A stretch of 64,000 bases of DNA from assembly GCA_021732995.1 (NCBI GenBank), contig JAKFWA010000068.1, positions 115,099 through 179,098 of the forward strand, given 5' to 3'. This DNA is from Planctomycetaceae bacterium (lineage in GTDB: Bacteria > Planctomycetota > Planctomycetia > Planctomycetales > Planctomycetaceae). Position numbers and translations under genes: made by a program. The notes beneath the pieces are model-generated. The model saw only the letters and a list, made by a program, of their open reading frames with translations. It did not search any database and had not been told where the DNA came from. Positions 12,121-52,999 of the stretch are shown piece after piece. Positions within the stretch are counted from its first letter, which is position 1; each line of letters begins with the position of its first letter.

Positions 12121-12210
12121 AGACTGTTCCTTTCCGTACCGATCATGATCCCGTCAGCAGCGTCTGCTGAAGCAACTGCACAGCGGCTTGAACCATCGAG
12201 AACTTTTGAC

Positions 12211-39600: not shown

Positions 39601-41023
39601 TCACGGCCGGCGGCGCGGCGAAGAGCGTCGCTTCGAAGCCTTCGGGCACTTTGACGTCCGCCATGCGACTTCGATCCGCCTCAGCTTTCGCGGCGAGCGG
39701 ATCGACTTTGACCTTCTCATCACCGAAGACCTGCAACTCCCACATGCTGACCCAACGACCGGGCAACGTGCCGGTGCAATGCACGCGGACGTAACGCGTC
39801 GTCGCGTCGAACTCGTGCGTCGACTTCGAGTCCTTGTAGTGCGAGTGATCAACGACCGGCTTCCAGCTCTTCGCATCGTCGGACGTTTCGACGGTGTAGG
39901 AGTAAGCCGCCTTGCGATCTTCCCAATCGATATTGCAGCCGGTGATATGCGTTGGCTTGCCGAGATCCACTTCGATCCACTGCGGGACGCTGCCGCCATC
40001 CGCACACCAGCGCGAGCCCTGTATTCCGTCAACAGCATTCTTCGCGTCGTTGCCCGCTTGTGTACTCGACACCTTGGTCGGCTTCTTCAACGCCAGGTTG
40101 ACCGGCACCCATTGAGCTTCGGAAGGCGCTACAGTTTTGAGGTAGGGTGATTGGGAGGGCGAGGCTCCCGCCAAGCCGTTGTTGGTATCTGCGCCTTTGC
40201 TCGTTCGCGGCTCGGCAGGAGCCTCGCCCTCCCGTGCGCTCGCTGCTTTGGAGTCTATCTCCAACTTCCCGCAAGCCCACAGCACGCCGCGCGTCAGCAG
40301 ATCCAGAAACTTCGGATCGCTGACTGTTTCGTTGTGATGCCCGAGCGTGGTGCCGAAGACGCGAGTCTTCTTCTCGCCGTACTCGTTGGTCCAGACGCAA
40401 ACTTCCTCATTGCCTTTCTCACGATTCTTGGCCGATGCCAGCGGATGTGCGGTCGGCCAGACTTTCTCGATCCAGTACAGCTCACCAGCGGGATTGGCCC
40501 AGCCTGCTCCCCAGCCACGCATGATGGGATGCTCGGCATCGCGGTTGAGCACTTCATGCGGATATGCCGCTCCGTGCTGTCGCGAGGTGACTCCGCAGAA
40601 CTTGAACCACTCATCCCGCCCATCGCGGTAGCAGTGCATTGCGCAGTGAATAACCACTGCCGGTAACCCGTCCTGATGCGGCTTCAGAATATTGTCGACC
40701 CACGCCTGATCTTTTACGTCCGCAAAGCATTCGTCATGAATGACAACATCAAATCCCTGGGACCAGTCCTTCGACTCATACAGCGGGATCTTCGAGTTCG
40801 TCGCTCCACCGCCCTGCCGCACGACGGTCACATCAATGTTCCCGCGCAACTGCAGCCCCTTGGCGATGATGTCCTTCTGAGCGTCATAGTCATGACAACA
40901 ACCGCCTGTGACGAGCAGTGCCTTGATGGGCTTTACACCACCCTCAGCCTTGTCGGCGGCGGACAGTGAGAACGCAGGAAACACGACGAACAGCACCGCC
41001 GCGAGCGCAGATGAAAGTTTCAT
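36647..41023 (-). CDS. PVC-type giant secreted protein: ThuA-like domain, F5/8 type C (discoidin) domain, beta-propeller (membrane-bound dehydrogenase type), HEAT/PBS-lyase repeats and C-terminal c-type cytochrome (CxxCH) domain
   Basis: Signal peptide. GGCCHDYDAQKD (ThuA-like). WCADGGSVPQWIEVDLGKP (discoidin). HEAT repeats such as DTNPRVRLESAVAIARL. C-terminal CNKCHTIKPDEPIRGPYL. Confidence 0.85.
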   Translation of the reverse strand: MKLSSALAAVLFVVFPAFSLSAADKAEGGVKPIKALLVTGGCCHDYDAQKDIIAKGLQLRGNIDVTVVRQGGGATNSKIPLYESKDWSQGFDVVIHDECFADVKDQAWVDNILKPHQDGLPAVVIHCAMHCYRDGRDEWFKFCGVTSRQHGAAYPHEVLNRDAEHPIMRGWGAGWANPAGELYWIEKVWPTAHPLASAKNREKGNEEVCVWTNEYGEKKTRVFGTTLGHHNETVSDPKFLDLLTRGVLWACGKLEIDSKAASAREGEAPAEPRTSKGADTNNGLAGASPSQSPYLKTVAPSEAQWVPVNLALKKPTKVSSTQAGNDAKNAVDGIQGSRWCADGGSVPQWIEVDLGKPTHITGCNIDWEDRKAAYSYTVETSDDAKSWKPVVDHSHYKDSKSTHEFDATTRYVRVHCTGTLPGRWVSMWELQVFGDEKVKVDPLAAKAEADRSRMADVKVPEGFEATLFAAPPAVSYPTFVAAAPDGVVYVSVDKNGSLDRQLKRGSVVRLRDVDGDGRADESKYFIPDVDSPRGLVWDHDRIYLMHPPHLSAFIDKDGDGISDEQKVLVKNIAFGFKDRPADHTSNGVTLGIDGWLYLAIGDFGFMQAEGTDGRKLQLRGGGVVRVRPDGTGLELYSNGTRNILEVAMDPLLNGFTRDNTNDGGGWDIRLHHFSGLEDHGYPRLYMNFGDEIIKPLADYGGGSGCGALFLDEPGFPKGFSPALYTADWGRSMVFRHEMTPNGATFKADQNEFLGLNRVTDLDVDANSTLYATSWKGATFTYNGEDVGSLIRLRPKGLKVDPLPDFNKASKAELVALLKSPSHRRRLDAQRSLLRKGVDDVTAAELRTLLLDTSLKLETRIAALFTLKQATDLSKANDMLAEAAKDEGLRPWAVRSLGDRGEQSRNVPVEPLVAGTNDTNPRVRLESAVAIARLNRADRAGAIVTLLSDADPVIVHTAVQSLIRLKASDACFAALDQTSAGDKLRVGALRALQSIHEGRVVDGLITRLAKESDAEKRQGLLVALCRLHFVDGVWKGNSWGTRPDTRGPYFQPEAWAETDKIAAALQRELDQADAEGTQFLATQLARHRIELKDGLKSLLAKVQTDARFTPSVVASIYRSGNLPPEAVAIVSKVATAPDSTAELRAQAVVALLKSSQPEALQTAIAGLEELQKVKQEATVSEAVNFFKEPATLNRHAKSLLALSAADSTSIWTDGGVLLLAEDRKKSKKNSNKDDAEEALAAAWFKPARRLKLLQAAEQFNARSQEDLVRNGLSDSNTDVATLAKKLAAAWKIAAAAPTGPKLSTLKPEEILAAVMKSKGDAARGEGVYAKLTCNKCHTIKPDEPIRGPYLPNVAKTYKREQLIESILLPSKTLAQGFVTNIFILNDGKSVVGFVTNEAADEVTIRNADGNEVKIKVEDIDERAKQAISVMPEGLVKDLTLDDFSSLIAFLESLASRATK

Positions 41024-41241
41024 GGAATCGGGTTACTCAACAAGAAAGGCTGCGATGAGATTGAGAATCGCGGGACGTCGAACTCCAATCACGCGGCTTT
41101 GGGACACGTGTTCGAGTCGTCGCCTCAGACTCTTCAGGCGGAAGTTTAGGCGGTTACTAGCAAGGATGTAGAGCATGGACGATGGACGTTTTCGGAGTCA
41201 CTGCGATCGCATCGCCGATTATCAATGCGAGGACCTCTCAC

Positions 41242-43071
41242 ATGCTGCGTCGATTGATTGCCATCGTGATGCTCCTGGTTGCTCAGTTTGCCCGCGCTGG
41301 TGGCGCTCCCGAGCAGGCTGTCATCGTCATAAACGGAGCGAGCGAGACGTCACGTCTGGTGGCGAATGAGTACCGTGTTGCTCGCCAGATTCCGGGTCGG
41401 CATGTGATTGAAGTGACGGGGCTATCCAATCTGGAGCAGATCGGCGTTGAAGAGTTTCGTGAGCGGATTCTGAAGCCCGTGTTGGGTGAGATCGAAAGCC
41501 GGGGGCTGACGCCGCAGATTGATTACTTGCTGTATTCAGCGGATATCCCGACGGCGATTGATGTCACGGCGGACATCGGCGAACGCAAGCTGCCGCGAGT
41601 GATTACGCCGCTGGCGTCGATCAACGGGCTGACGTTCCTGCATCAATTCGTGCTGGAAAAGGATCTTACGTACCTCGATTTGAATGTGAACTTCTATGCG
41701 CGACGGGCGGGGCCGAAGAGTCGAGACACGATCTGGGACGAAGCAGATACGCGCCGCTATGCGGATATGCTGCAGAAGTTGCAGGCGATCGAGTCAGCTC
41801 GCAAAGACACCAAGCCGGATGATTCAAAGGACAGCGCACAGCCAGCAACTCCAGAGTTGAAAGACGTTGCTTCCGCGCTACAGGACTTGCGAACGCGACA
41901 TCCGCTGTCGGGAGATCTGCTTTACAACCTGACGTGTGTGCTGGCGGCTCAAGGGGAGCAGGAGACAGCTCTCAAGACTTTGAACGAAGCCGTTGATGCC
42001 GGTTGGGCGAACCATCGGCATGCGCTTCGGGACAACGATCTGAAACCACTGCGCGCAAACGAGGAGTTTCAAAAACTCATCGAACGCATGAAGACCATTC
42101 CCGTCGAGACGCAGCCGAGCATCGGCTTTCGCTCAAACGTGGGTTGGACAGCGACGGGCGCGGTGTCGCCGAAGATCGGAAAACCGGCTGCCGAAGCTGG
42201 ACCTCGTTATCTGCTGTCGACGGTGCTGGCCGTCACACAAGGCCGTGGCCTCACCGCGAAGGAGTCCATTGAAGGGCTGCAACGCAGCGTGCAGGCAGAT
42301 CGAACTCGGCCGAAGGGTACGATCTACTTCGAGCAGAATGGCGACATCCGTTCGACGACTCGCGAATGGGCGTTTCGCAGTGCTGCCGCCAAGCTGGAGT
42401 CGCTCGGGCTGAAAGCGGTCATCGAATCCGGAGTCCTGCCGCAGCAACGTGACGACGTGGCCGGCGGCGTCATCGGCATCGCCGACTTCGACTGGCCCAA
42501 GAGCGGCAGCAAGATCCTGCCCGGTGCGATTGTGGAACACCTCACCAGCTTTGGCGGTGTGATGAAAGCCGGAGCAGGCCAAACGCCTCTCACCGAATTC
42601 CTGCGTCACGGCGCAGCGGGTTCATCGGGCACCGTAACGGAGCCGTTCGCCATCCAAGCCAAGTTCCCGTCACCTTTCATCCACGTACATTATGCGGAAG
42701 GCTGCTCGCTGGCCGAGGCCTTCTATCAATCGGTCACGGGGCCTTATCAATTGCTAATCGTCGGCGATGCTCTGTGCCAGCCCTGGGCGAAAGATCTGCA
42801 AGTGAAGCTCGAAGGCCTCCCAGAATCCGGTGAGGTCTCCGGCAAACTGCAGCTGACGGCGACAACCACATCAAAAGACGGCATTGAAGTCGCTGCGTTC
42901 GAACTGTTCATCGACGGACGACGGCATCAAGTCTGTCGCGCGGGCGATCCAATCGAACTCGACCTGACCGGCATCGCTGCAGGCCCTCACGAACTCAGTT
43001 GCGTGGCTATCGGCAAGGACGCCGTCCTGACGACCGGCCGCTGGGCACGCACGGTCAACGTGAGAGACTGA
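41242..43071 (+). CDS. Secreted hypothetical protein (610 aa)
   Basis: Start taken at MLRRLIAIVMLLVAQFARAGGAPEQA, a signal peptide. Confidence 0.6.
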   Translation: MLRRLIAIVMLLVAQFARAGGAPEQAVIVINGASETSRLVANEYRVARQIPGRHVIEVTGLSNLEQIGVEEFRERILKPVLGEIESRGLTPQIDYLLYSADIPTAIDVTADIGERKLPRVITPLASINGLTFLHQFVLEKDLTYLDLNVNFYARRAGPKSRDTIWDEADTRRYADMLQKLQAIESARKDTKPDDSKDSAQPATPELKDVASALQDLRTRHPLSGDLLYNLTCVLAAQGEQETALKTLNEAVDAGWANHRHALRDNDLKPLRANEEFQKLIERMKTIPVETQPSIGFRSNVGWTATGAVSPKIGKPAAEAGPRYLLSTVLAVTQGRGLTAKESIEGLQRSVQADRTRPKGTIYFEQNGDIRSTTREWAFRSAAAKLESLGLKAVIESGVLPQQRDDVAGGVIGIADFDWPKSGSKILPGAIVEHLTSFGGVMKAGAGQTPLTEFLRHGAAGSSGTVTEPFAIQAKFPSPFIHVHYAEGCSLAEAFYQSVTGPYQLLIVGDALCQPWAKDLQVKLEGLPESGEVSGKLQLTATTTSKDGIEVAAFELFIDGRRHQVCRAGDPIELDLTGIAAGPHELSCVAIGKDAVLTTGRWARTVNVRD

Positions 43072-43374
43072 AAGGCACCGCCGGGATGTGATCATTGTTC
43101 GCTGCGAGAAATTCAAACGCGAACGCATCAGTTTGTGCTGAGTTAGCGACTTCCCGTTCGACTGCTGGTGTATTCCTGGGCAGGCTGTTGAACTTTGTGG
43201 ATCGCGCCGACTTGGCGGCCGCCGCAAGGTTTCGCCAATCGCTGAAATCCGTGAACTGCCGTCAATAGTCGGTTCAACTTGCGAGAGTCGCGGGCGCGCT
43301 GGCTCGAACCGGGAATAGACTGCAGTGCGCGCTCGGTGCGCGCGATGCCTGGTCTCGCCTCTGGTTGGGTCATC

Positions 43375-45189
43375 ATGCGACTTCTGCTGCAGCGGCTTCT
43401 GATCGTGGTCCTCGCCGTCGTGACAACGCTGGCTGTGGGCAACGCTGATGATGCGCCGTCAACTCCGATGCAGAAGCCGCATCCGAATCCTGATAGTCGC
43501 GGTCGCAATACGGCTGTGGCGCTCAACTACTGCCGCGCGTCGTTTCATCGCATCCGCCGCTATCAGTCCAAACGAGTGCTCATTGAAGAGCAGGAAAAGA
43601 TCCTCAACAACCTGAACCTCAACGGTATCGGAGATGAAGAGGTCATCAAGCTATACTCGTCGGTGCTGGATGAGATCAGCCGCACGCAGATTGCTGATCG
43701 CGAAATGGCGTTTCTGCAGGACAAATTCAAGAAGGGCCTGCAGCGTCAGGTTGGGGCTTCGGTGCTGACGATGGGCACCCAGATGGCGTTGTGCTCGGTC
43801 GAAGGCGCGGTCCGGACCGGCGTCAATAGTTGGCTGGATTACCGCGACCTCTCCTGGTCGCGTGAGCTCGATGTCTGGAAGGTCGACAAGGACCGGATGC
43901 AGGCGGTTGTTGAGAAGTCGACCAGCTTCCTCGACACGTTCTGGAAGCTGGCTCAGAAGAACAATATCCCGGACCGCTGGCTCGTCCGTGGTGACGATCT
44001 GGACGCGCTTGAAGAGGCGGTGCGCGAGCCTGAACCGGAGAAGCGGCTGCGCATCCTGCGACGGATGGAACCGTTTATGGAGTGCTACCCGCCCTACTGG
44101 TACTACGTCGCGCGAGCGTTGCAAACGAGGGGTCAGGCTCAGGAAGCTGCCGTCGTTTACAATCGAGTGGCGGACCTCGCCTACGGCCATTTCCGCAAGG
44201 ATGACATGCTGGCCGCGTCACTGGCCAATCGCGCCATCATTCAGGAATACCTCAAAGACGAAAACGCAGTCCGGTCTGCAGAAGAGTCGCTGGCCCACTC
44301 GGCAGGCGTGTGGGAAGCGAATCTGATGTGTGCTCACGTGCTGGAACGGCACGGACAGATCCAGCAGGCAGAAGACGCGATCTTACGAAATCTTGATGTC
44401 GATCTCGAACGCCCTAGCAGCGCGCTGGCGCTGCTGAGTCTTTACTATCGGAACAGCCGCCACGACGGGATCGTCCGCATGCTGGAGTCGGAAGAGCTCC
44501 TGGCGGTTCTGCCTGTTCAGAACGTGCTGCAGTGTGCGGAGAAGATCGGCGCCGAACGCGTGCCAGTCGGAACAGTGGTCAAGCTGCGCGAGTCTTTGTC
44601 GGTTTCCACAGAGCCACGTTTCGGACTGGACGACGTCAACCTGACGTGCGATGCCAACTGGCTCGCCCACACCGCCCGGATTCGATACCTGACTCCCGGA
44701 GCGAATGGACCACCTCAGTACGCAGAGCTGCCTCCGTCCTCACAGAGCCCTGCAGGTGATTTAAACACCCGTTTTCGGTCTGCGATTGAAGCAGGACATG
44801 CGCTGAACCCCGCAAACAATGCGTTGCAAGGCACCGTTTTGAGTTTCCACTACCCCAGCCAGACTCCAGATGCACAGCCTATCGTGGTGGTCTTGGGAAA
44901 TTCCGTCGCCAAACGCAACTCGAAGTCTGCCCCGCGCGGCATCTCAGCCTCTCCGGCCGAAGTGCGAATTGGCGAGTTTCGCCTGAGGCTGCAAACAGAA
45001 GTTCCAGTGGCTCTCGCACCTCCGCCCGAGCAGGTTGCCGAACGCAAACCAGACGCCAGCCCCTCGCCCGAACGTCGCGGTCCCAAAGCTCGCATTCTGG
45101 ACATCATCCCGCTGCCTCAAACTGGCTTGTCTGGCCCGCAGAAGCAGACCACTCCACCACCGCCGGAAGCGAGCGGCGCTTCGCCCTGA
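43375..45189 (+). CDS. Secreted hypothetical protein with Pro-rich C-terminus
   Basis: Start taken at MRLLLQRLLIVVLAVVTTLAVGNA. Confidence 0.6.
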   Translation: MRLLLQRLLIVVLAVVTTLAVGNADDAPSTPMQKPHPNPDSRGRNTAVALNYCRASFHRIRRYQSKRVLIEEQEKILNNLNLNGIGDEEVIKLYSSVLDEISRTQIADREMAFLQDKFKKGLQRQVGASVLTMGTQMALCSVEGAVRTGVNSWLDYRDLSWSRELDVWKVDKDRMQAVVEKSTSFLDTFWKLAQKNNIPDRWLVRGDDLDALEEAVREPEPEKRLRILRRMEPFMECYPPYWYYVARALQTRGQAQEAAVVYNRVADLAYGHFRKDDMLAASLANRAIIQEYLKDENAVRSAEESLAHSAGVWEANLMCAHVLERHGQIQQAEDAILRNLDVDLERPSSALALLSLYYRNSRHDGIVRMLESEELLAVLPVQNVLQCAEKIGAERVPVGTVVKLRESLSVSTEPRFGLDDVNLTCDANWLAHTARIRYLTPGANGPPQYAELPPSSQSPAGDLNTRFRSAIEAGHALNPANNALQGTVLSFHYPSQTPDAQPIVVVLGNSVAKRNSKSAPRGISASPAEVRIGEFRLRLQTEVPVALAPPPEQVAERKPDASPSPERRGPKARILDIIPLPQTGLSGPQKQTTPPPPEASGASP

Positions 45190-45545
45190 TCTCTTGAGCC
45201 GCCGAAACCTGCCCTGCAATCGCCGCTCGTCTTCGCCGCTGGCTGCTTTCTGATTGGGCCCAGTTTACCATCCAACACCCGCAGCGATTCAAACTCGACG
45301 CGAGGCAGGATCTCAGCCACCATTTGCCGTAAGCCAATATGCTGATGTAGCTTGCATGGATCATGCGTAACTTTCGCGGGTGCTGAACTTGCCGTTACAG
45401 TCGTCAAAGTCGGAATATTTTCACAAGTTTCCCTCAGTCCGCGAACGATACATACACCGAACATTCTTCGGATGAGGAATGCGGAATCGTTCTTCCGAGT
45501 CGTTCTGGTTCGTCTGGAGCCAGTCGATTCTGACATCGGACCGAG

Positions 45546-46124
45546 GTGAAGCAGATGAAACGGATGTCTCTCTTTGCGGTTCTCGCACTGCTGGTCATCA
45601 GCACGTCGGGCTGCGTGGCGGTCAAGGATGTGGTCGTCAACTCCCTGATCTTCTCCGAGTTCTGGGGCACCACACCGCTGATTCCCGTCAGTCCTTATTA
45701 CAGCCAACTGATCGAAGACACCTACCACGAAGAAGAGCGCTACAGCAAAGTGCCGGTGCTCGACGCGGTGGAAGGTGAAAACGCCCCTCTGTACTGCCTG
45801 GATCCACCAAGCCCGGACGAAGTCATCCGCGCGTTGCCAGCCAGCGAAAAGGGAGCTGGCGGGTTCGCGTTCCTGGCGGAAACGAGCCTGAACAACGTTC
45901 GCATGGTGATTGAGCCAATCGTCGATCGCGTGGACGAATGCCGGTTCTACCCGCTAGTCGGCCCAGCTCGCCTGCATCACTGCCACTACAAGTGCACGAT
46001 TTATTATGACAAGAGCATCCGATCGAACTGGCCAGTGCCGTTCACTCACACCGATCAGAGCCAGGAAGTGGTCTACATCGACCACGATCATCTGATCCGC
46101 TGCACGTCGCTCGCTGGTCAGTAA
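45546..46124 (+). CDS. Lipoprotein, hypothetical
   Basis: MKQMKRMSLFAVLALLVISTSGC lipobox-like signal. Confidence 0.6.
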   Translation: MKQMKRMSLFAVLALLVISTSGCVAVKDVVVNSLIFSEFWGTTPLIPVSPYYSQLIEDTYHEEERYSKVPVLDAVEGENAPLYCLDPPSPDEVIRALPASEKGAGGFAFLAETSLNNVRMVIEPIVDRVDECRFYPLVGPARLHHCHYKCTIYYDKSIRSNWPVPFTHTDQSQEVVYIDHDHLIRCTSLAGQ

Positions 46125-46148
46125 GCGGTTGAGCATCCGAAGATCTTT

Positions 46149-46183
46149 GAAAGCCCGATGGTTATGCCATCGGGCTTTTTTTG
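46149..46183 (+). terminator. Rho-independent terminator after the lipoprotein gene
   Basis: AAAGCCCGATGG-TTATG-CCATCGGGCTTT followed by TTTTTTGTT. Confidence 0.7.
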
Positions 46184-46618
46184 TTACCGGAACGGTTTAC
46201 AGTGCCAGTAGCAGTGTCAGCGATTGGAAACAGGTCGCGAGAAACATCGCCCGCCAAATCGCCCTGCTTGCCCAAGCTCACCAAAGAATGCAGCAATGGC
46301 TGCCGGCAGCCCGCATCACCTGACATCCCGTCGAGACAGCGATCAGAAGCCTTTCCGGGAACGCCTTTCAATCCGATCGAACCTGTTCTGGCTCGCTAAT
46401 GTCGCGCCTACCGGAGTCGGGAACAGCGCCAACGTTGTAAACCACGGGTAGCGCAGGACTTTGAACTTCGACCTAAATCCCGCTGTTTTACCGGGAAGTC
46501 CGAGGTGGCACGAGCTGTGCATTAGGAGTGGGCCAGCAGGCTGTCTGTTTGCGCTGGGATGTCTGCAGCTTCCAGCGCGGCGTCTGTTACGTCCACCCTA
46601 ATGACAAGGAGAGGTTCG

Positions 46619-46963
46619 ATGCGAAATCTTGCGATGCGACTGTGGCAAGATGATGCTGGTTTCGTCGTGTCGACGGAACTGGTCCTCATTGCCACAATCA
46701 TCGTCCTCGGCGCCCTCGTTGGTCAGGCCACACTGCGTGACGCAGTGATCTCGGAACTGGCTGACACCGCCGAATCGATTAACGAGCTCAATCAGAGCTA
46801 CTCGTTCTCAACCGTGACTGGACACTCCAGCTCGGTGACCGGCACCGTCTTCGCTGACGTTGCTGACTTCTGCGAAGGTCTCGGTACCGATGGTCAACAG
46901 GGCACCGCTGGCAACGGCCATTGCGTGAACCTGACTGTCACCGTCGGAACGATCGACGGCTAG
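46619..46963 (+). CDS. Atypical Flp/type-IV-like prepilin 1 (114 aa)
   Basis: Strong SD AAGGAGAGG 7 nt before the ATG at 46619. Leader MRNLAMRLWQDDAG followed by FVVSTELVLIATIIVLGALVG (Gly-Phe junction, acidic residue at +6, hydrophobic helix). Confidence 0.55.
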   Translation: MRNLAMRLWQDDAGFVVSTELVLIATIIVLGALVGQATLRDAVISELADTAESINELNQSYSFSTVTGHSSSVTGTVFADVADFCEGLGTDGQQGTAGNGHCVNLTVTVGTIDG

Positions 46964-47032
46964 TCCGAGCGTCGATCTGTGCGAAAAAACGGGCCGTCCG
47001 CCGATACTCGTGCCCCCGATGCGGCGGGCCTT

Positions 47033-47067
47033 CCACCAGCGGGGGGAACTGTTCCCCCCTCTGGTGG
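47033..47067 (+). terminator. GC-rich hairpin between the two pilin-like genes (possible attenuator)
   Basis: CCACCAGC-GGGGGG-AACTGTT-CCCCCC-TCTGGTGG followed by TTTCGC. Confidence 0.4.
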
Positions 47068-47135
47068 TTTCGCATGGAACTCCGTTTGCAGGCTCGACGC
47101 TCGGCGTCCGAGCCTTTTCGCATTCATGAAACAGT

Positions 47136-47465
47136 TTGAGGTTGTCTGTGTCGTCACGCAGTCTTACCCATCGACTTTGGCGGGATGAAGCCGGTTTCCT
47201 TTCGGCCACCGACTACATCCTGGCAACAACGATACTCACGTTCGGCGCCATCGTGGGATTGGTGACTCTGCGCGACGCGGTGATCCAGGAGTTTGGTGAC
47301 GTGGCAGTGGCATTGGAGTTTCTGCCGCAAACTTACTCTGTGACGATCACTCTGAAGAACGGCTCGATGAAATCCTTCGGTTACACAGATACAAATTCTC
47401 TCACAGATCCTGTTGGCCAGGCACCGGCGGGGATCAATCTGTCATTGCCGCCCAATCAGGAATAG
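47136..47465 (+). CDS. Atypical Flp/type-IV-like prepilin 2 (109 aa), paralogue of prepilin 1
   Basis: Leader MRLSVSSRSLTHRLWRDEAG followed by FLSATDYILATTILTFGAIVGLVTLRDAV. It shares RLW[QR]D[DE]AGF...LRDAV with prepilin 1. Confidence 0.5.
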   Translation: MRLSVSSRSLTHRLWRDEAGFLSATDYILATTILTFGAIVGLVTLRDAVIQEFGDVAVALEFLPQTYSVTITLKNGSMKSFGYTDTNSLTDPVGQAPAGINLSLPPNQE

Positions 47466-47474
47466 AGGCTCGCG

Positions 47475-48605
47475 ATGTCGCGTATCACTCCAGGGACGAT
47501 GACGGTTGTTCTGTTCGCATTGCTGGTTGGCCTGGGCGGGGCATACGTCGTCAGGCACCACATTTCCGACCAAATAATCGTCTCATCGCCATCTCGTTCG
47601 CTGCCAGTGCGAAATGAGCAGGTCATTGTGCCGGTGGCACTGACCGACCTTGAACCAGGACGGGTTGTTGCCATCGGCGACATCGGTTTGGTTCGCATGA
47701 GCCAGGACGACTACAAGAAGAGTCGTTACTTCAATACGACTTACATGGCTACGCCCGACCAGATTGCGGGCCGTACTCTGAAGTCCGCCATGAAGAAAGA
47801 AGCGGTCTTCTCGCCCGAGGATCTGTATCCGGCAGGCAGTGCTCCTGGCATTGCTGAGCGCCTGGAAGCTGGTTACCGGGCCGTTTCGGTGCCATTGAAA
47901 AACGTTGGCGCCGTGCACGGTTTCGCCCGACCGGGATCTTACGTCGATGTCATGTTCCGTTCGGCTCCGGCAGGTTCGCGGCCTCAAGTGACGATGACCC
48001 TGTTTGAGCGCGTTCAGGTTCTTGCGATCAACAGCAATGTCGTCAAAGATCAGCGAGTCGATCTCAACGCGGACGGCACCGTCACTCTGGCTGTCACTCC
48101 GACGCAGGCGAAGCTCCTGAAGGTCGTCGAAGGCAACGGCGAAGTGTCACTCGCCTTGCGTCGTGAAGATGACGAATTTCAGTTCATTCCTTTCGATCCA
48201 GCACTTGAAAAATCCCTTTCGCAGCTCGGCATCGATACATCGGCCATGCGAAATGTGAGCTACCCGACCAGCACGACATCGACAGCTTCCAAGACCTCGA
48301 AGCGCGGTATGGCGGCTGATGCGGACAGCATCGACGGTGTGGATCGCGTCATCGGCAATTCTGCGGAGCGAGTCACGATGGATGACTTGATCGGTTTCAG
48401 TGCCGAGCCGGAGAAGACCAGCATGGAAGTCTACTACGGTCGCTCTAAAGAAGTTCTGACGTTTGAGGCCTCTGACGAGCCCGCACTGGAGACGCTTCGA
48501 CGCGGCGGTCGAATCCGAACTCCGATTGTGGATCACCCCCTGCTTCGCAAGAAGCCAATCGGCACCGCTGCTGTTGGTAAGCCGAGTGCCGCTGGTCAGA
48601 ACTAG
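47475..48605 (+). CDS. cpaB: CpaB/RcpC-family Flp pilus assembly protein
   Basis: N-terminal TM helix, SAF-like segment VPVALTDLEPGRVVAIGDIGLV, and a CpaB C-terminal domain. Confidence 0.75.
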   Translation: MSRITPGTMTVVLFALLVGLGGAYVVRHHISDQIIVSSPSRSLPVRNEQVIVPVALTDLEPGRVVAIGDIGLVRMSQDDYKKSRYFNTTYMATPDQIAGRTLKSAMKKEAVFSPEDLYPAGSAPGIAERLEAGYRAVSVPLKNVGAVHGFARPGSYVDVMFRSAPAGSRPQVTMTLFERVQVLAINSNVVKDQRVDLNADGTVTLAVTPTQAKLLKVVEGNGEVSLALRREDDEFQFIPFDPALEKSLSQLGIDTSAMRNVSYPTSTTSTASKTSKRGMAADADSIDGVDRVIGNSAERVTMDDLIGFSAEPEKTSMEVYYGRSKEVLTFEASDEPALETLRRGGRIRTPIVDHPLLRKKPIGTAAVGKPSAAGQN

Positions 48606-48626
48606 TTGCCGGTCAGGACATCTCTC

Positions 48627-49982
48627 ATGGCTCCGATGCAGTCTCGGACTTTAATGCTCGACCCCGCTCAAGTAGGCGGCGATGTCGATGACCACGAGTT
48701 GCAGTATCAGCGATTCAAGGTCCACATTCATGAACGGCTGGTCGATTCACTCGACCTGTCGATGCTCGCGCACGTTCCCCAGAAAGAGTTGGAGGTCGAA
48801 GTCCGGCAATTGGCGACCGAGCTGATTGCTGAGGAATCTCGCTCCAAGAAGCTCACGGGTAACGACAAGGAACGTCTGCTCGACGAAATCTTCGACGAAG
48901 TCTTCGGCTTGGGCCCCCTCGAGCCGTTGATGCGTGACGACTCCGTCTGCGACATCCTGGTCAACAACCCGTTTGAGGTGTACGTCGAGCGACACGGCCG
49001 CCTGGAACCTACGTCTGTGATGTTTGCTGACCAGGCACATCTGCTGCGCATCATTCAGCGGATCGTGTCCCGCGTCGGCCGCCGGATCGACGAAGTCAGC
49101 CCGCTGGTTGACGCTCGTCTGCCGGACGGTTCACGTATCAATGCGGTCATTCCGCCGCTGGCTCTCGATGGCCCAACGCTGTCTATTCGTCGCTTCGGCC
49201 GCAAGCCGCTGCAGATCGAGGACCTGCTGGACGTCGGCTCGATCCACGGCGACGTGGTGGAGTTCCTCGCTGCGGCCATCGATGCTCGCATCAGCTTTCT
49301 GGTTTCCGGTGGAACTGGTGCCGGCAAGACCACGATGCTCAATGCGCTGGCGAAGTTCATTCCGACCGATGAACGTATCGTGACAGTCGAGGACTCGGCT
49401 GAATTACAGTTGCAACACAAGCACGTGGTCCGCATGGAAACGCGTCCGCCGAACAACGAAGGTGCGGGTGAAATCACTCCACGTTCGCTGGTTCGTAACA
49501 GCTTGCGTATGCGTCCTGACCGGATCGTCATCGGCGAAGTGCGCGGGGGCGAGGCCCTCGACATGCTGCAAGCCATGAACACCGGCCACGAAGGCTCGCT
49601 GACAACGATTCACGCCAACGATTCACGCGATGCATTGGCCCGACTGGAATTGATGGTCGCCATGAGTGGTTTTGACCTGCCGATTCCGGTCGTGCGCCAA
49701 TACATCGCTTCGGGAATCGCCCTGATCGTGCATCTGGCGCGACTCAAGGGTGGTGTCCGCCGTGTGATGCAGGTCTCGGAGATCATTGGCGTCAAAGAAG
49801 GTGGCTTCCATATCGAAGACATCTTCGGGTTTGAACAGACCGGCGTGGATGAACTCGGCGTCGCTCAGGGCGAGTTCTTCTTCACGGGTTATCGACCGGT
49901 ATGTCTGGGCCGACTGCGGGCCGCTGGCATCCGCCTGCCGGATGAGATCTTCGACAAGCGTCGTATTCCGATCAAAGCTTAG
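48627..49982 (+). CDS. cpaF: CpaF/TadA-type pilus assembly ATPase
   Basis: Walker [45 protein letters not shown] region. The start is ambiguous: TTG at 48606 or ATG at 48627. Confidence 0.9.
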
Positions 49983-50082
49983 CGTGCAGCCAAATACTTC
50001 TTGAGAACGGTCTGAGGTTAAATCAACGTTCTCACGAGGTCGCATCGCGGACCGTCATTGAGCCGCGATCACCATCGCCAGG

Positions 50083-51045
50083 ATGAGCGATGAGGTTTTT
50101 CAAAAGGAGACGTTGAAGACAAGGTTTCTGTTCATGGGTAGCTCGCAGTTAGTGCTCCTGGCCTTCGGATCCGGCACGTTGGTGGCCGGCGCAGGAGCCT
50201 GGTTCATCCGAGCACTCGTGTTTCCGCCACCGTCGCGACGAATTCGTCGTGCGCCGGATGTCTTCGATGAGAACCCCGCGCGTGGTTTAGGCGGGAAGAT
50301 CGACCAGGAATTCAATCGTCTGGCGATCGAGAGTGGCTTGGGAATTCTGCCAGTCACGATGTTCATGCTGCTGCTCTGCACGACGTTGATCGGCGGCGGT
50401 GTCGTGTGGTTCGTCCAGGAAGAGCCCCTGCTGTCAGTCAGCGGCGCCCTGGCTGGATTCCTGATTCCGTTGTGCTTTATCGCTGCCAAGCGGTTGCTGC
50501 GTTTGCATACCGTTCGCACCGAACTGCCGCACGTGCTGGACATGCTGGCTCGAGCCACTCGCGCGGGCCGCAGCATCGATCAGGCGATCGACTTGATCGC
50601 TCACGAAGCAGGCGGCATCCTCGGAGAAGAGTTCACCCTGTGTTCTCAGCAACTCGGCATGGGCCGTTCGTTTGAACGCGTCATGAAGACACTGGCCACT
50701 CGCGTACGACTCGTTGAGATGCGCATTCTTTCCACGACTCTGATCGTGCAAAAGCAGTCGGGCGGCAAATTGTCTGAGACCCTGGAACGCATGGCGTCGG
50801 TCGTGCGCGACCGCCTGTCTTCGCGTCGCCAGATTCAGGCGGCAACGGGTGCTGGTCGTGCTTCGACCTTAATCATCGCAACGGTATCTCCGCTGGCATA
50901 TGCCTTTGTTTGGGCGTTTCATCGTCAGCACCTGCAGGTCATGTTGAATGAGCCTGTCGGCCGCGCGATGCTGCTGGTGGCTCTGGTGCTGGAAGTGATC
51001 GGGCTCTTCTGGGTCCTCTACTTATTGAGGACAGAGAGCCAATGA
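50083..51045 (+). CDS. tadB: TadB-like type II secretion system F-family inner-membrane protein
   Basis: 320-aa membrane protein with a T2SSF-like layout. Confidence 0.75.
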   Translation: MSDEVFQKETLKTRFLFMGSSQLVLLAFGSGTLVAGAGAWFIRALVFPPPSRRIRRAPDVFDENPARGLGGKIDQEFNRLAIESGLGILPVTMFMLLLCTTLIGGGVVWFVQEEPLLSVSGALAGFLIPLCFIAAKRLLRLHTVRTELPHVLDMLARATRAGRSIDQAIDLIAHEAGGILGEEFTLCSQQLGMGRSFERVMKTLATRVRLVEMRILSTTLIVQKQSGGKLSETLERMASVVRDRLSSRRQIQAATGAGRASTLIIATVSPLAYAFVWAFHRQHLQVMLNEPVGRAMLLVALVLEVIGLFWVLYLLRTESQ

Positions 51046-52004
51046 ACAACAGCACGATCATCATCTCGACATTTGCCGGGCTGGTCATTTTGGTCTACAT
51101 GCTGGGCATGGCGATCATCAATGCCCGTCGTCGCGTGCACAACATCAACGACGTCGAACGCCAATTGCGTAATAAGCATAACAGTACGCTTCGTCGCTGG
51201 CTGGCGGATGCGATTCCGCAGCCGCAAGGCGAAATGGAGCGACTGGAGCAGGACCTCAAACGCGCGGGCTTCTATGGTTCGAACTCGGTCATCGAATTCC
51301 GCAGCATCCGCAACCTGCTCGTGATGGTGGTGATTTTCGTCGGAGTCGGAGCGGCCATCGCCGCGAAGCCCGGCAGCGACTTGCCTCGATCCATCCTGCT
51401 GGTCACGGCAATCACAACCGTGGCCGCATATGTGGCGCCACGCCTGGTGCTACACCTGCAGGCTATGAAGCGACTGGACAGCATCCAGCGGGGATTGCCC
51501 GATGCGCTGGACATCATCCGCATGTGTCTGACCGGTGGTTTGCCGTTGCGTGATTGTCTGGTGCGAGTCTCCCGCGAAGTCGAGTTCTTCCATCCCGATG
51601 TAGCGATCGAACTCGAAGTGGTGCGTCGTCATGCGGAAATCGACACGATGGCCAAAGCGCTGCGCGAGTTCTCACGCCGCATGAACGCTCCAGACGTGAA
51701 TGCTCTGGCGTCGCTGGTTTCGCAGAGCGAGCGCACCGGTACCAACGTCGCCGTGGCGGTGACCGAGTTCGCGGACAGTATTCGTCAGCAGTTCCGCCAA
51801 CGAGCGGAAGAGCGTGCCAACAAGACCAGTATTCGCATGCTGTTCCCGGTCATTCTATGCCTGGCACCGCCGATCTTCATCCTGCTGCTGGGGCCTCCAG
51901 CCCTGCAACTGCGCACGTTCCTCAACGCCGCCCGTAACCCCGGCGGCATCATGGACACGGCCACCTACAGCGACCGCATCTCAGATCGCTTGTCGAATCG
52001 CTAG
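51042..52004 (+). CDS. tadC: TadC-like type II secretion system F-family inner-membrane protein
   Basis: 4-bp ATGA overlap with tadB. 320-aa membrane protein. Confidence 0.75.
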   Translation: MNNSTIIISTFAGLVILVYMLGMAIINARRRVHNINDVERQLRNKHNSTLRRWLADAIPQPQGEMERLEQDLKRAGFYGSNSVIEFRSIRNLLVMVVIFVGVGAAIAAKPGSDLPRSILLVTAITTVAAYVAPRLVLHLQAMKRLDSIQRGLPDALDIIRMCLTGGLPLRDCLVRVSREVEFFHPDVAIELEVVRRHAEIDTMAKALREFSRRMNAPDVNALASLVSQSERTGTNVAVAVTEFADSIRQQFRQRAEERANKTSIRMLFPVILCLAPPIFILLLGPPALQLRTFLNAARNPGGIMDTATYSDRISDRLSNR

Positions 52005-52243
52005 AGCTGACTCGCTACAGCGTGAGAGCATCCTGCTGCCTGGGGCATTCCATTGTCGCAGCGGAACCGCTCGGTGAACCTGACCTCGCGATCAAACCGA
52101 GCCGCAGTCAATCACTCTGCGTCAGAAGCGAGTTACCCCTGACGCTTCGTGATGACAACCTTCCAGCGCTTCATTTTGATACCTGACGACAAATCGTCCT
52201 CCGCAGCGTGTGATTGTCGTGTGGATTGCTCTGCCAGCCACGG

Positions 52244-52999
52244 TCACCCGAGTAGTGGCCAATGCCCACCACCATCAATGTGTTTGATCATTCTATCACA
52301 TTTGAGGCGGACGCTATCAGTAATTGGTGATCGATGTCCTGGGCAAAGGGTATCAATTTCGAACGTCAGGCAACGCCGCATCGAATCCCGAGCCCGATTG
52401 ACGTCCGGAGTCACTGCGCGAGCCATGAAATGGACGTCGTTATGAACTACGGCAAGTGCGTCACCCGCAAACAGAACTCGCTCTGGTTTGTAATAGAAAC
52501 TCAGGTGCCCTGGGGTGTGCCCCGGCGTTTCGATGACCTCAAAATACTCGTCGATGAGACCTCCATCTGACACGATCTGCGGATTGAGTATCGCGCGAGG
52601 GGTTGCTTCGCCAAGCAGCCCTTTGAACAGAACCAGCACGCCCCATTCGGGAATGAGTTCGCTGATCTTGCCAGACATACCTTTTCGGGCAGTCTGGCGT
52701 GTCAGTTGTGGCACATCGTTGGTGTGACAATAAGCCGGAACATCCAGCTTGTCCTGCACGGCGCGAGCTCCGGCGGCATGATCATTGTGCCAATGCGTCA
52801 ACAAGATGGAACGGACCTCATCCGGCCGTGCGCACATGGCATCGAGTCCTCGATAAATGTCTGCGCCCGACGAATCCATACCCGCATCAACCAGCACGAC
52901 ACCGCGCGGCGTGCGGACGAGGTAAGAGCACGTCAGATACGAAGGTCTGCGGATGCACCAGACGTTCTCGGTGACGGCAAATACTTGCACTCCGATCAT
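52244..52999 (-). CDS. MBL-fold metallo-hydrolase
   Basis: LTHWHNDHAAGA (HxHxDH) motif. Confidence 0.85.
   Translation of the reverse strand: MIGVQVFAVTENVWCIRRPSYLTCSYLVRTPRGVVLVDAGMDSSGADIYRGLDAMCARPDEVRSILLTHWHNDHAAGARAVQDKLDVPAYCHTNDVPQLTRQTARKGMSGKISELIPEWGVLVLFKGLLGEATPRAILNPQIVSDGGLIDEYFEVIETPGHTPGHLSFYYKPERVLFAGDALAVVHNDVHFMARAVTPDVNRARDSMRRCLTFEIDTLCPGHRSPITDSVRLKCDRMIKHIDGGGHWPLLG

What the first reader, a model, noticed from the sequence alone, without database searches (positions are those of the whole stretch)
46619..52004. Compact Tad/Flp-like pilus locus lacking secretin, prepilin peptidase and CpaE
Order: two prepilin-like genes, cpaB, cpaF, tadB, tadC. tadB and tadC overlap by 4 bp, and cpaB and cpaF abut. 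I see no CpaC/RcpA secretin, no CpaA/TadV peptidase and no CpaE/TadZ ATPase within about 18 kb either side.

The flanking genes are secreted or lipoprotein unknowns (41242-46124) and an MBL hydrolase. Planctomycetes display pili linked to crateriform structures whose genetic basis is poorly defined. A minimal tad module with divergent pilins is a candidate for that machinery.
Basis: partly seen in the sequence, partly recalled or inferred. Interest (0 to 1): 0.6.

Follow-up and report, generated by a model that had tools for sequence, protein, structure and literature searches.

The report
Split Tad pilus operon, Planctomycetaceae
This is an intact six-gene operon for the inner-membrane motor and subunits of a Tad-type adhesive pilus in a planctomycete; the outer-membrane pore it seems to lack lies next door in some relatives and far away in others, so here it is probably displaced, not lost.

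Summary
Window 46619-52004 carries six co-oriented, intact genes: two small pilin-like genes, cpaB, cpaF, tadB and tadC. No secretin, A24 prepilin peptidase or TadZ/CpaE homologue exists anywhere in the 64 kb.

The "minimal machine" reading is only partly supported. The same module is conserved with unrelated flanks in other Planctomycetaceae, including Gimesia alba.

In two relatives (L013, L093) a second unit lies convergent and adjacent to tadC: lipoprotein, CpaC-type secretin, Gly/Phe-tailed lipoprotein and TadD-like TPR protein. In Thalassoglobus polymorphus that unit stands alone. This CpaB keeps a C-terminal motif that I read as the secretin-docking beta-hairpin.

So the window most likely holds the pilin and inner-membrane half of a two-unit Tad-like system, with the outer-membrane unit and peptidase elsewhere.

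New details:
- The pilins belong to a large Planctomycetaceae family without a Pfam model. They have an Flp-like leader, Glu at +6, and a roughly 55-residue extension with a conserved Cys pair in one type.
- A sigma-54 type promoter element precedes the first pilin gene in six of the eight loci examined.
- A terminator-like hairpin follows the Cys-type pilin gene.
- No TadZ lies near either unit.

The crateriform link is untested. This is a lineage-specific variant of a known system, of modest interest.

The parts
46149..46179 (+). Intrinsic terminator of the upstream lipoprotein gene. It marks the 5' boundary of the pilus transcription unit.
   Evidence: 14-bp stem followed by a T-run; read directly in the sequence.
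46506..46521 (+). Sigma-54 type -24/-12 promoter element, TGGCAC-GAGCT-GTGCA, starting 113 nt upstream of the pilin A start codon.
   Evidence: It is the only match in the 64 kb on either strand. On its own this is not significant: 0.33 matches are expected by chance. A slightly looser form of the element, YGGCAC-N5-NTGCH, lies 104-139 nt upstream of the first pilin gene in L008, L010, L013, L004 and L007. Its background rate is 1e-5 per nt over 1.9 Mb. A sigma-54 activator gene lies next to the module in Gimesia alba.
46619..46963 (+). Pilin A, 114 aa: a Flp-like prepilin and the probable major subunit. It has a 14-residue leader ending in DDAG, then FVVSTE (Glu at +6), a hydrophobic helix, and a C-terminal extension of about 55 residues with conserved Cys85 and Cys102.
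   Evidence: Strong AAGGAG ribosome-binding site upstream. The family has at least 3410 members, with invariant G14 and F15 and nearly invariant E20, C85 and C102. The leader, Gly and Glu align to Caulobacter PilA with a one-residue gap (hhalign P = 7e-4). AlphaFold2 predicts a confident helix over residues 12-56. Some homologues are named Flp pilin by JGI. A family member lies directly before an A24 peptidase in the full Tad cluster of L015.
47033..47073 (+). GC-rich hairpin (CCACCAGCGGGGGGAA-CUG-UUCCCCCCUCUGGUGG) followed by UUUCGC, between pilin A and pilin B. It is a probable partial terminator or transcript stabiliser.
   Evidence: The intergenic RNA folds at -86.7 kcal/mol, z = -3.9. Positionally equivalent hairpins with U-runs follow the Cys-type pilin gene in L008, L010 and L013.
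47148..47465 (+). Pilin B, 105 aa, GTG start: a paralogue without the Cys pair, with the motif G-FLSATDY. It is a probable minor or second pilin.
   Evidence: 35% identical to pilin A and shares the leader and helix motifs. Orthologues occupy the same position in L008, L010, L013 and L014. Called as a gene on metagenome contigs.
47475..48605 (+). CpaB/RcpC, 376 aa: the periplasmic alignment-complex protein. It has an N-terminal membrane anchor, an RcpC domain, a long Ser/Thr-rich linker, a beta-hairpin-like motif (SMEVYYGRSKEVLTFE) and an extra tail (GGRIRTPIV).
   Evidence: Pfam RcpC and TIGR03177 above cut-off. The C-terminal motif is conserved in canonical CpaBs that sit next to secretins. 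The role of the RcpC hairpin in docking the secretin comes from PMC12307814.
48627..49982 (+). CpaF/TadA motor ATPase, 451 aa from the ATG at 48627 (the open frame starts at 48606).
   Evidence: T2SSE 6.3e-65; best NCBIfam match is the TadA family. Walker A (GGTGAGKT) and the other ATPase boxes are visible in the translation. 50-61% identical to CpaF of complete Tad clusters and 79% to L013. 55% identical to a Burkholderia replicon sequence that is not annotated there.
50134..51045 (+). TadB inner-membrane platform protein, 303 aa as called (the ATG at 50083 is also possible).
   Evidence: T2SSF domain 1.4e-18; gene call of 303 aa.
51042..52004 (+). TadC inner-membrane platform protein, 320 aa. 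Its start overlaps the tadB stop by 4 bp.
   Evidence: T2SSF domain 1.5e-13; translation. The downstream MBL hydrolase gene is convergent, which ends the unit.

Best explanation
The locus is the pilin and inner-membrane unit of a Tad-like (type IVc) pilus system specific to Planctomycetaceae. The system is encoded in two separable gene units.

**Unit 1 (this window)**
- It is inferred to be transcribed from a sigma-54 type promoter.
- A terminator-like hairpin after the first gene is inferred to give excess transcript for pilin A, the probable major subunit, with read-through into pilin B, cpaB, cpaF, tadB and tadC.

**Proposed assembly steps (inferred)**
- Both prepilins are inserted in the inner membrane.
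- They are cut after the conserved Gly14 by an A24 prepilin peptidase encoded elsewhere.
- They are polymerised on the TadB/TadC platform by the CpaF ATPase.
- CpaB forms the periplasmic ring that guides the fibre to an outer-membrane CpaC-type secretin.

**Unit 2 (not in this window)**
- The secretin is encoded with a TadD-like TPR protein and two lipoproteins in a second unit.
- That unit is adjacent to unit 1 in some relatives and remote in others.
- In this genome it lies outside the 64 kb.

**What is shown and what is inferred**
- Shown: gene identities, intactness, conservation of the six-gene module, conservation and variable position of the secretin unit, and the recurring promoter element and hairpin.
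- Inferred: that this genome has unit 2 and a peptidase, that pilin A is the major subunit, that sigma-54 drives expression, and that the product is a surface fibre used for adhesion or substrate capture.
For: **Components**
- Four core Tad components are identified by curated models.

**Conservation of the module**
- All six genes are intact.
- They are conserved as a block against L008, L013 and L014, and against L010 (Gimesia alba), while the flanks differ.
- Identities: CpaF 64-80%, TadC 46-68%, TadB 42-58%, CpaB 38-54%, pilins 39-61%.

**The secretin unit in relatives**
- L013 has, convergent after tadC, a TPR protein, a secretin (PF13629 + PF00263), TadG-like and TadE-like proteins, a short Flp-like pilin and another TadE.
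- L093 has lipoprotein, secretin, a 200-aa protein and a TPR protein adjacent to four pilins plus cpaB-cpaF-tadB-tadC.
- L094 (Thalassoglobus polymorphus) has the same secretin unit alone.
- The unit's secretin, roughly 195-aa protein and TPR protein match among all three loci; the 150-aa lipoprotein matches between L013 and L093.
- The secretin family has at least 2265 members; its 120 best matches are 60-99% identical and come from several Planctomycetaceae genera.

**CpaB**
- It keeps the C-terminal beta-hairpin-like motif shared with canonical CpaBs that neighbour secretins.
- In P. aeruginosa RcpC that hairpin is needed for Tad function and is modelled onto the secretin N-domain (PMC12307814).

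**Pilin assignment**
- The leader, Gly and Glu align to Caulobacter PilA.
- AlphaFold2 predicts a long N-terminal helix.
- A family member sits immediately before an A24 peptidase in a complete cluster (L015).
- L013 carries a short relative with the canonical G-xxxx-EY motif.

**Regulation**
- The sigma-54 element and the hairpin after the pilin gene recur at the same positions in relatives whose intergenic sequences otherwise align poorly.

**Precedents**
- The prepilin peptidase is modelled as a gene that can lie apart, and multi-locus Tad systems are allowed for, in Denise et al. 2019.
- The Myxococcus Kil Tad-like system works from two clusters.
Against: - Only 64 kb of this genome are available, so the secretin unit and the peptidase have not been found in this organism.
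- No TadZ/CpaE lies within 10 kb of either unit in any window-type locus. TadZ is a mandatory component in the standard Tad detection models.
- None of 26 pilin family members reaches Pfam Flp_Fap or TadE, even at E <= 1.
- The profile-profile match to PilA is short and weak, with 26% probability.
- The C-terminal half of pilin A is modelled with low confidence, and no fold match was found.
- The sigma-54 element is not significant in this window alone.
- The related loci are not independent samples.
- No expression or microscopy data exist.
Confidence: 0.72

Rival explanations
1. It is a truly minimal, secretin-independent machine. The six genes would build a periplasmic or short fibre that acts like a type II secretion endopilus or an uptake piston in the enlarged planctomycetal periplasm. 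Alternatively the fibre would leave through a non-secretin pore such as a crateriform structure.
For: - No secretin, peptidase or TadZ lies in 64 kb.
- The module also lacks them within 10 kb in L008 and in Gimesia alba.
- About 13 Planctomycetaceae and Pirellulaceae loci carry only cpaF-tadB-tadC.
- CpaF can drive both extension and retraction in Caulobacter (abstract of PMC11300603).
- Fibres that bind dextran and start at crateriform structures have no known genes.
Against: - A dedicated CpaC-type secretin unit lies adjacent to the module in L013 and L093 and is highly conserved in the family.
- CpaB, whose known role is to link the platform to the secretin, is present and keeps its C-terminal hairpin-like motif.
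Confidence: 0.12
2. It is a partial duplicate of a complete canonical tad cluster elsewhere in the genome. It would be non-functional, or dependent on and redundant with that cluster.
For: Complete clusters (A24-TadE-CpaB-secretin-TadZ-CpaF-TadB-TadC) exist in other Planctomycetota, including Planctomycetaceae genomes assembled from metagenomes (L038, L041). Their CpaF is 52-54% identical to this one. A second, complete system in this genome is therefore possible and could lend its peptidase.
Against: - All six genes are intact and tightly spaced, and ribosome-binding sites are visible before pilin A, pilin B and cpaB.
- The module is conserved as a unit across genera with 38-80% protein identity.
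- It has its own pilin family, promoter element and, in relatives, its own secretin unit.
Confidence: 0.04
3. The two small proteins are not pilins. They would be membrane-anchored proteins or substrates, and the CpaF/TadBC/CpaB machine would export something else.
For: - There is no Pfam, NCBIfam or PDB sequence match.
- Glu lies at +6, not +5.
- The C-terminal part has no confident fold.
- Stand-alone family members lie next to PEP-CTERM proteins, far from any Tad gene.
Against: - The 14-residue leader ends in an invariant Gly and is followed by a hydrophobic helix, as in Caulobacter PilA.
- The genes always sit at the head of the Tad operon.
- One member lies directly before an A24 peptidase gene.
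- JGI annotates several homologues as Flp pilin.
- Scattered extra pilin genes are common for type IV filament systems (general knowledge).
Confidence: 0.1

Closest known systems
Canonical Tad / Flp (type IVc) pilus, such as Caulobacter cpa, Aggregatibacter flp-rcp-tad and P. aeruginosa flp-rcp-tad
   Same: - It has CpaF/TadA, the TadB/TadC pair and CpaB/RcpC.
- The prepilins have a short leader ending in Gly, as in PilA (both leaders are 14 residues), followed by an acidic residue and a hydrophobic helix.
- The gene order, pilin first then assembly genes, is the same.
- In relatives the secretin has the CpaC/RcpA domain pair PF13629 + PF00263, followed by a small lipoprotein and a TPR protein. 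This recalls rcpA-rcpB and tadD; the comparison to rcpB rests on my own knowledge.

   Different: - No TadZ/CpaE, A24 peptidase or secretin lies between cpaB and cpaF. These are present in that position in about 40 canonical loci.
- The system is split into two movable units.
- The pilins are about 100 residues when mature, against 45 for PilA. The acidic residue is at +6, and type A has a Cys pair.
- The pilins do not match Pfam Flp_Fap.
- CpaB is about 80-100 residues longer and has an extra conserved tail.
Myxococcus xanthus Kil Tad-like apparatus
   Same: It is a Tad-like machine encoded in two separate clusters that work together. TadZ is not mentioned among its components in the main text of that paper. 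Its prepilin peptidase is dispensable and thought to be replaceable by another peptidase (PMC8460266).
   Different: - In Kil the ATPase carries an FHA domain, and the ATPase, secretin and peptidase sit in one cluster with the platform and pilins in the other.
- Here the ATPase sits with the platform and pilins.
- Kil serves contact-dependent killing of prey. Nothing suggests that function here.
Type IVa/IVb pilins
   Same: - Phe follows the cleavage-site Gly.
- A C-terminal pair of Cys residues recalls the disulphide-bonded region of type IVa/b pilins (my own knowledge; the Cys conservation is).
   Different: - The assembly genes are of the Tad type (CpaF, split TadB/TadC, CpaB), not PilB/PilC/PilMNOP.
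- Glu is at +6, not +5.
- The protein is far smaller than type IVa/b pilins.
- No globular domain is confidently predicted.

Membership tests
Tad / type IVc pilus system (TXSScan/MacSyFinder definition) | TadA/CpaF-type ATPase | tested here: met
   T2SSE 6.3e-65; best NCBIfam match is the TadA family at 350 bits, just under its 373-bit cut-off. 50-61% identical to CpaF genes inside complete Tad clusters.
Tad / type IVc pilus system (TXSScan/MacSyFinder definition) | Two paralogous platform proteins, TadB and TadC | tested here: met
   Two adjacent genes, each with one T2SSF domain, overlapping by 4 bp.
Tad / type IVc pilus system (TXSScan/MacSyFinder definition) | RcpA/CpaC secretin encoded with the system | tested here: not met
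   No secretin in the 64 kb. It is adjacent in relatives L013 and L093 and remote in L094. Whether this genome has one cannot be tested with 64 kb.
Tad / type IVc pilus system (TXSScan/MacSyFinder definition) | TadZ/CpaE ParA-like ATPase | tested here: not met
   No hit in the window, nor within 10 kb of either unit in any window-type locus. It is present directly before cpaF in about 55 of the 80 loci found through CpaF.
Tad / type IVc pilus system (TXSScan/MacSyFinder definition) | RcpC/CpaB (accessory) | tested here: met
   TIGR03177 at 140 bits against a cut-off of 71; Pfam RcpC.
Tad / type IVc pilus system (TXSScan/MacSyFinder definition) | TadV/CpaA prepilin peptidase (may be encoded apart) | tested here: not met
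   No A24 domain in the window. Denise et al. 2019 allow it to lie apart. The rest of the genome cannot be tested.
Flp pilin family (Pfam PF04964 Flp_Fap) | Match to the family profile | tested here: not met
   0 of 26 family members match Flp_Fap or TadE at E <= 1.
Flp pilin family (Pfam PF04964 Flp_Fap) | Short leader ending in Gly, then G/xxxxEY and a hydrophobic helix | tested here: inconclusive
   The leader, the invariant Gly14 and the helix are present and align to PilA. The acidic residue is at +6 (FVVSTE in A, FLSATDY in B), one residue out of register. hhalign gives P = 7e-4 and 26% probability.
Flp pilin family (Pfam PF04964 Flp_Fap) | Cleavage by the prepilin peptidase and assembly into a fibre | not testable with these tools
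   This needs N-terminal sequencing or mass spectrometry of fibres.

The most novel reading that the evidence does not exclude
This sigma-54-driven, two-unit, TadZ-less Tad-like system, with its Planctomycetaceae-specific pilins of about 100 residues, builds one of the fibre types seen by electron microscopy on planctomycetes. These are the fibres that bind polysaccharide and start at large crateriform structures, or the thin polar holdfast and stalk fibres. The CpaC secretin with its two lipoproteins and TPR protein would form part of the crateriform pit, and CpaF-driven retraction would bring bound polymers to the cell.
Probability: 0.2. Interest if true: 0.7.

Novelty: new variant of a known kind. 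Interest (0 to 1): 0.35.

Why it matters
**The open question**
- Planctomycetes carry conspicuous fibres and crateriform pits whose genes are unknown. A 2025 review still calls the mechanisms and players unknown.
- This analysis does not solve that question. It turns a vague "incomplete tad locus" into a defined set of candidates for experiment.

**The candidates**
- A six-gene pilin and motor operon.
- A four-gene secretin unit.
- A pilin family with several thousand members and no Pfam model.
- A predicted sigma-54 promoter.

At least the operon is present in a cultured, fully sequenced strain, Gimesia alba Pan241w. Deletion followed by electron microscopy is the obvious test.

**A practical point for annotation**
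- Single-locus models that demand TadZ and a secretin will miss or under-call this system across the family. Denise et al. describe scattered Tad systems as very rare.

**If it is only an adhesion pilus**
- The result is then an ordinary lineage-specific Tad variant.

Tried and rejected
1. Looking up the window's CpaF from the TTG start found nothing, because the recorded gene starts at the ATG at 48627.
2. Pfam, NCBIfam and PDB sequence searches with the small proteins or their family profile gave only chance matches, such as Sec61_beta and a designed repeat protein.
3. AlphaFold2 of pilin A with 54 homologues gave a confident N-terminal helix only (mean pLDDT 68). Foldseek against the PDB returned nothing.
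4. Rfam found no riboswitch or other RNA family in 45900-52400. I had considered a c-di-GMP riboswitch in the 436-nt leader region.
5. I tried to collect canonical Flp sequences from plasmid tad loci. The Burkholderia replicon was unannotated, and the Rhizobium locus has only a divergent small protein.
6. A greedy longest-ORF gene caller failed on GC-rich loci. I replaced it with HMM searches of all six-frame ORFs.
7. I tried to identify the source genome through cluster members, so as to look for its secretin by locus tag. No accessions or names are recorded. None of the 120 best secretin homologues shares the window's 225,418-bp contig length.
8. The upstream genes (41182-46124) were considered as system parts and rejected. 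They have no counterparts next to the module in L008, L010, L013 or L014, and a terminator separates them from it.
9. The literature searches found no functional study of Tad genes in planctomycetes. They found only genome or transcriptome listings for Limnoglobus and Singulisphaera.

Full report
**1. What is in the sequence**

Between an intrinsic terminator at 46149-46179 and a convergent MBL-hydrolase gene at 52244-52999 lie six co-oriented ORFs.

| Gene | Coordinates | Size | Evidence |
|---|---|---|---|
| Small ORF A | 46619-46963 | 114 aa | No Pfam or NCBIfam match |
| Small ORF B | 47148-47465 | 105 aa, GTG start | No credible Pfam or NCBIfam match |
| CpaB | 47475-48605 | 376 aa | Pfam RcpC; TIGR03177 at 140 bits, cut-off 71 |
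| CpaF | 48627-49982 (frame opens at 48606) | 451 aa | T2SSE 6.3e-65; best NCBIfam match is the TadA family |
| TadB | 50134-51045 | 303 aa | One T2SSF domain |
| TadC | 51042-52004 | 320 aa | One T2SSF domain |

Independent gene calls on metagenome contigs carrying identical proteins give the same six genes.

The 4-bp tadB/tadC overlap is right. "cpaB and cpaF abut" holds only for the open frame.

**2. The missing components**

- Pfam scans of essentially every ORF of at least 150 aa in the window found no Secretin, Peptidase_A24 or ParA/CpaE-type domain.
- I then built HMMs for secretin, A24 peptidase, TadZ, TadE and TadG. The seeds were Pfam-verified or record-annotated genes in related loci.
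- I searched all six-frame ORFs of at least 45 aa with them. The window gave hits only for the six genes.
- The window is planctomycetal: it has PSCyt1/PSCyt2/PSD1, DUF1501 and sulfatase genes.

**3. Is the compact module real or a remnant?**

The same block occurs in several other places:
- L008;
- a 101-kb JGI contig;
- L013 and L014;
- Gimesia alba Pan241w (L010, with three pilin genes);
- L093 (with four pilin genes).

A protein-level comparison of L008, L010, L013 and L014 with the window shows that only these six genes are shared. The flanks are unrelated.

| Protein | Identity to the window across L008, L010, L013, L014 |
|---|---|
| CpaF | 64-80% |
| TadC | 46-68% |
| TadB | 42-58% |
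| CpaB | 38-54% |
| Pilins | 39-61% |

The module is a conserved, mobile-within-genome unit under selection. It is not a decaying duplicate.

**4. Where the secretin is**

Among 80 genome loci retrieved with CpaF, about 40 show the canonical order A24-(TadE)-CpaB-secretin-TadZ-CpaF-TadB-TadC. These include Acidobacteriota, Proteobacteria, Phycisphaerae and some Planctomycetota. The window type differs in that nothing lies between cpaB and cpaF.

- **L013** is the closest species genome (CpaF 79% identical). Directly after tadC, on the other strand, it carries:
  - a TPR protein;
  - a 552-aa secretin with the CpaC/RcpA domain pair PF13629 + PF00263;
  - TadG-like and TadE-like proteins;
  - a short Flp-like pilin and another TadE.
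- **L093** (a 7.8-Mb contig) has lipoprotein, secretin, a 200-aa protein and a TPR protein, convergent and adjacent to the module.
- **L094** (Thalassoglobus polymorphus, complete genome) has secretin, a 191-aa protein and a TPR protein standing among unrelated genes.
- The secretin, the roughly 195-aa lipoprotein with a Gly/Phe-rich tail and the TPR protein are orthologous among the three loci. The 150-aa lipoprotein matches between L013 and L093. None has a hit in the window.
- This secretin family has at least 2265 members; its 120 best matches are 60-99% identical and come from several Planctomycetaceae genera.

The system therefore consists of two units whose linkage varies. The window holds only the first.

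**5. CpaB points to a secretin partner**

- In P. aeruginosa, RcpC forms the periplasmic alignment ring. Its C-terminal beta-hairpin is needed for Tad function and is modelled onto the secretin N-domain (PMC12307814).
- Canonical CpaBs next to secretins end in a motif such as QVEIIRGLDRSTQQF. The window's CpaB has SMEVYYGRSKEVLTFE at the equivalent place, as do the window-type CpaBs of L008, L010, L013 and L014. That this motif is the hairpin is my inference from the alignment.
- Window-type CpaBs add a conserved tail, GGRI(R/Q)TP(I/V), after it. That tail is unexplained.
- Planctomycetota CpaBs are mostly longer (most are 326-418 aa) than the others (about 275-310 aa). A link to the wide planctomycetal periplasm is speculation.

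**6. The small proteins**

- A and B are paralogues, 35% identical.
- Family A has at least 3410 members in Planctomycetaceae (Gimesia, Thalassoglobus and others). None has a Pfam domain, and a few are named Flp pilin by JGI.
- Invariant or nearly invariant positions are D11, A13, G14, F15, S18, E20, R40, E46, D49, Q59-S60-Y61, H69, D80, C85 and C102.
- I verified the mature Caulobacter PilA sequence against PDB 8u1k. It starts after G14 of the prepilin.
- hhalign aligns MRNLAMRLWQDDAGFVVSTEL with MTKFVTRFLKDESGA-TAIEYGL. The leader has the same length, Gly aligns with Gly and Glu with Glu, with a one-residue gap. P = 7e-4 but the probability is only 26%.
- AlphaFold2 gives a confident helix over residues 12-56 and an unresolved C-terminal half.
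- A family member sits immediately upstream of the A24 peptidase gene in the complete cluster of L015. L013 carries a short relative with the canonical G-SIFVEY motif.
- None of 26 members matches Pfam Flp_Fap or TadE.

I conclude they are Flp-derived prepilins of a distinct family. They have Phe at +1, the acidic residue at +6, and a roughly 55-residue extension. Type A carries a conserved Cys pair; type B does not.

More distant family members occur alone, next to PEP-CTERM proteins.

**7. Regulation**

- TGGCAC-N5-GTGCA at 46506-46521 is the only such element in the window. Alone it is not significant, because 0.33 matches are expected by chance.
- A slightly looser form of the element, YGGCAC-N5-NTGCH, lies 104-139 nt upstream of the first pilin gene in L008, L010, L013, L004 and L007.
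- The background rate is 1e-5 per nt. The surrounding sequences align poorly.
- Gimesia alba has a sigma-54 activator gene next to tadC.
- A strong hairpin with a U-run follows the Cys-type pilin gene in the window (47033-47073), L008, L010 and L013. A terminator or attenuator after the major pilin gene is a familiar arrangement in pilus operons (my own knowledge).
- Rfam finds nothing here.

**8. Comparison with known systems**

- It works like a Tad/type IVc pilus.
- It fails the single-locus definition: the secretin and TadZ are not co-located, and TadZ is not seen near either unit.
- Its pilins fail the Pfam Flp model.
- Denise et al. call scattered Tad systems very rare and let the peptidase lie apart.
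- The Myxococcus Kil system is a working two-cluster precedent with a dispensable peptidase.
- Tad genes have been listed in planctomycete genome and transcriptome papers for Limnoglobus and Singulisphaera. I found no functional study.

**9. Verdict**

The locus is compact, but it is best read as half of a two-unit system rather than a minimal machine.
- The link to crateriform structures is untested.
- I file it as a lineage-specific variant of a known system, with modest interest.
- Its main value is a concrete candidate gene set, at least partly present in a cultured strain, for the unexplained planctomycetal fibres.

Noticed in passing
window 46506-46521: A sigma-54 type -24/-12 element lies upstream of pilin A. 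The same element recurs at the same distance in five related loci, and a sigma-54 activator gene lies next to the module in Gimesia alba (L010, 15592-17028).
   Followed up: partly
window 48440-48605 (CpaB C-terminus): Window-type CpaB proteins carry an extra conserved tail, GGRI(R/Q)TP(I/V), after the beta-hairpin-like motif. Planctomycetota CpaBs are mostly longer than those of other phyla by tens of residues, up to about 100. The function of the tail is unknown.
   Followed up: partly
L013 14322-14906 (-); L093 11741-12343; L094 11665-12240: A conserved lipoprotein of about 195 aa follows the CpaC-type secretin. It has the core motif GTISDPVWQQQExNAEASDFVI and a Gly/Phe-rich C-terminal tail (GGFGGGFGG), and has no Pfam domain. 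It occupies the position that RcpB holds in other tad loci.
   Followed up: partly
L003 8596-10366; L004 10001-12002: More distant members of the pilin family occur singly or in pairs, away from any Tad gene. They sit next to proteins with a PEP-CTERM (exosortase) sorting domain. L003 also has a 1258-aa secretin 5 kb upstream.
   Followed up: no
L020, L022, L024, L027, L030, L033, L034, L042, L044, L048, L052-L054: About 13 Planctomycetaceae and Pirellulaceae loci show only cpaF-tadB-tadC, with no detectable cpaB, pilin, secretin, TadZ or A24 gene within 10 kb. This is an even more reduced arrangement, and I did not examine it further.
   Followed up: no
window 36647-41023 (-): A 1458-aa protein combines ThuA, F5/8 type C (discoidin), DUF7133 and HEAT repeats. 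It is a large multi-domain planctomycete-type protein of unknown role.
   Followed up: no
window 2886-6161 and 11974-13686: A PSCyt1/PSCyt2/PSD1 protein and a DUF1501 protein, both hallmark planctomycete families, lie together with a sulfatase gene (10708-12120). They confirm the taxonomic origin of the window.
   Followed up: no
window 41182-43071: This protein combines a TIGR03790-family region with a TPR_END_plus / ABhydrolase-like_N domain. It is followed by a 636-aa protein with weak TPR matches. Neither is conserved next to the pilus module in relatives.
   Followed up: partly
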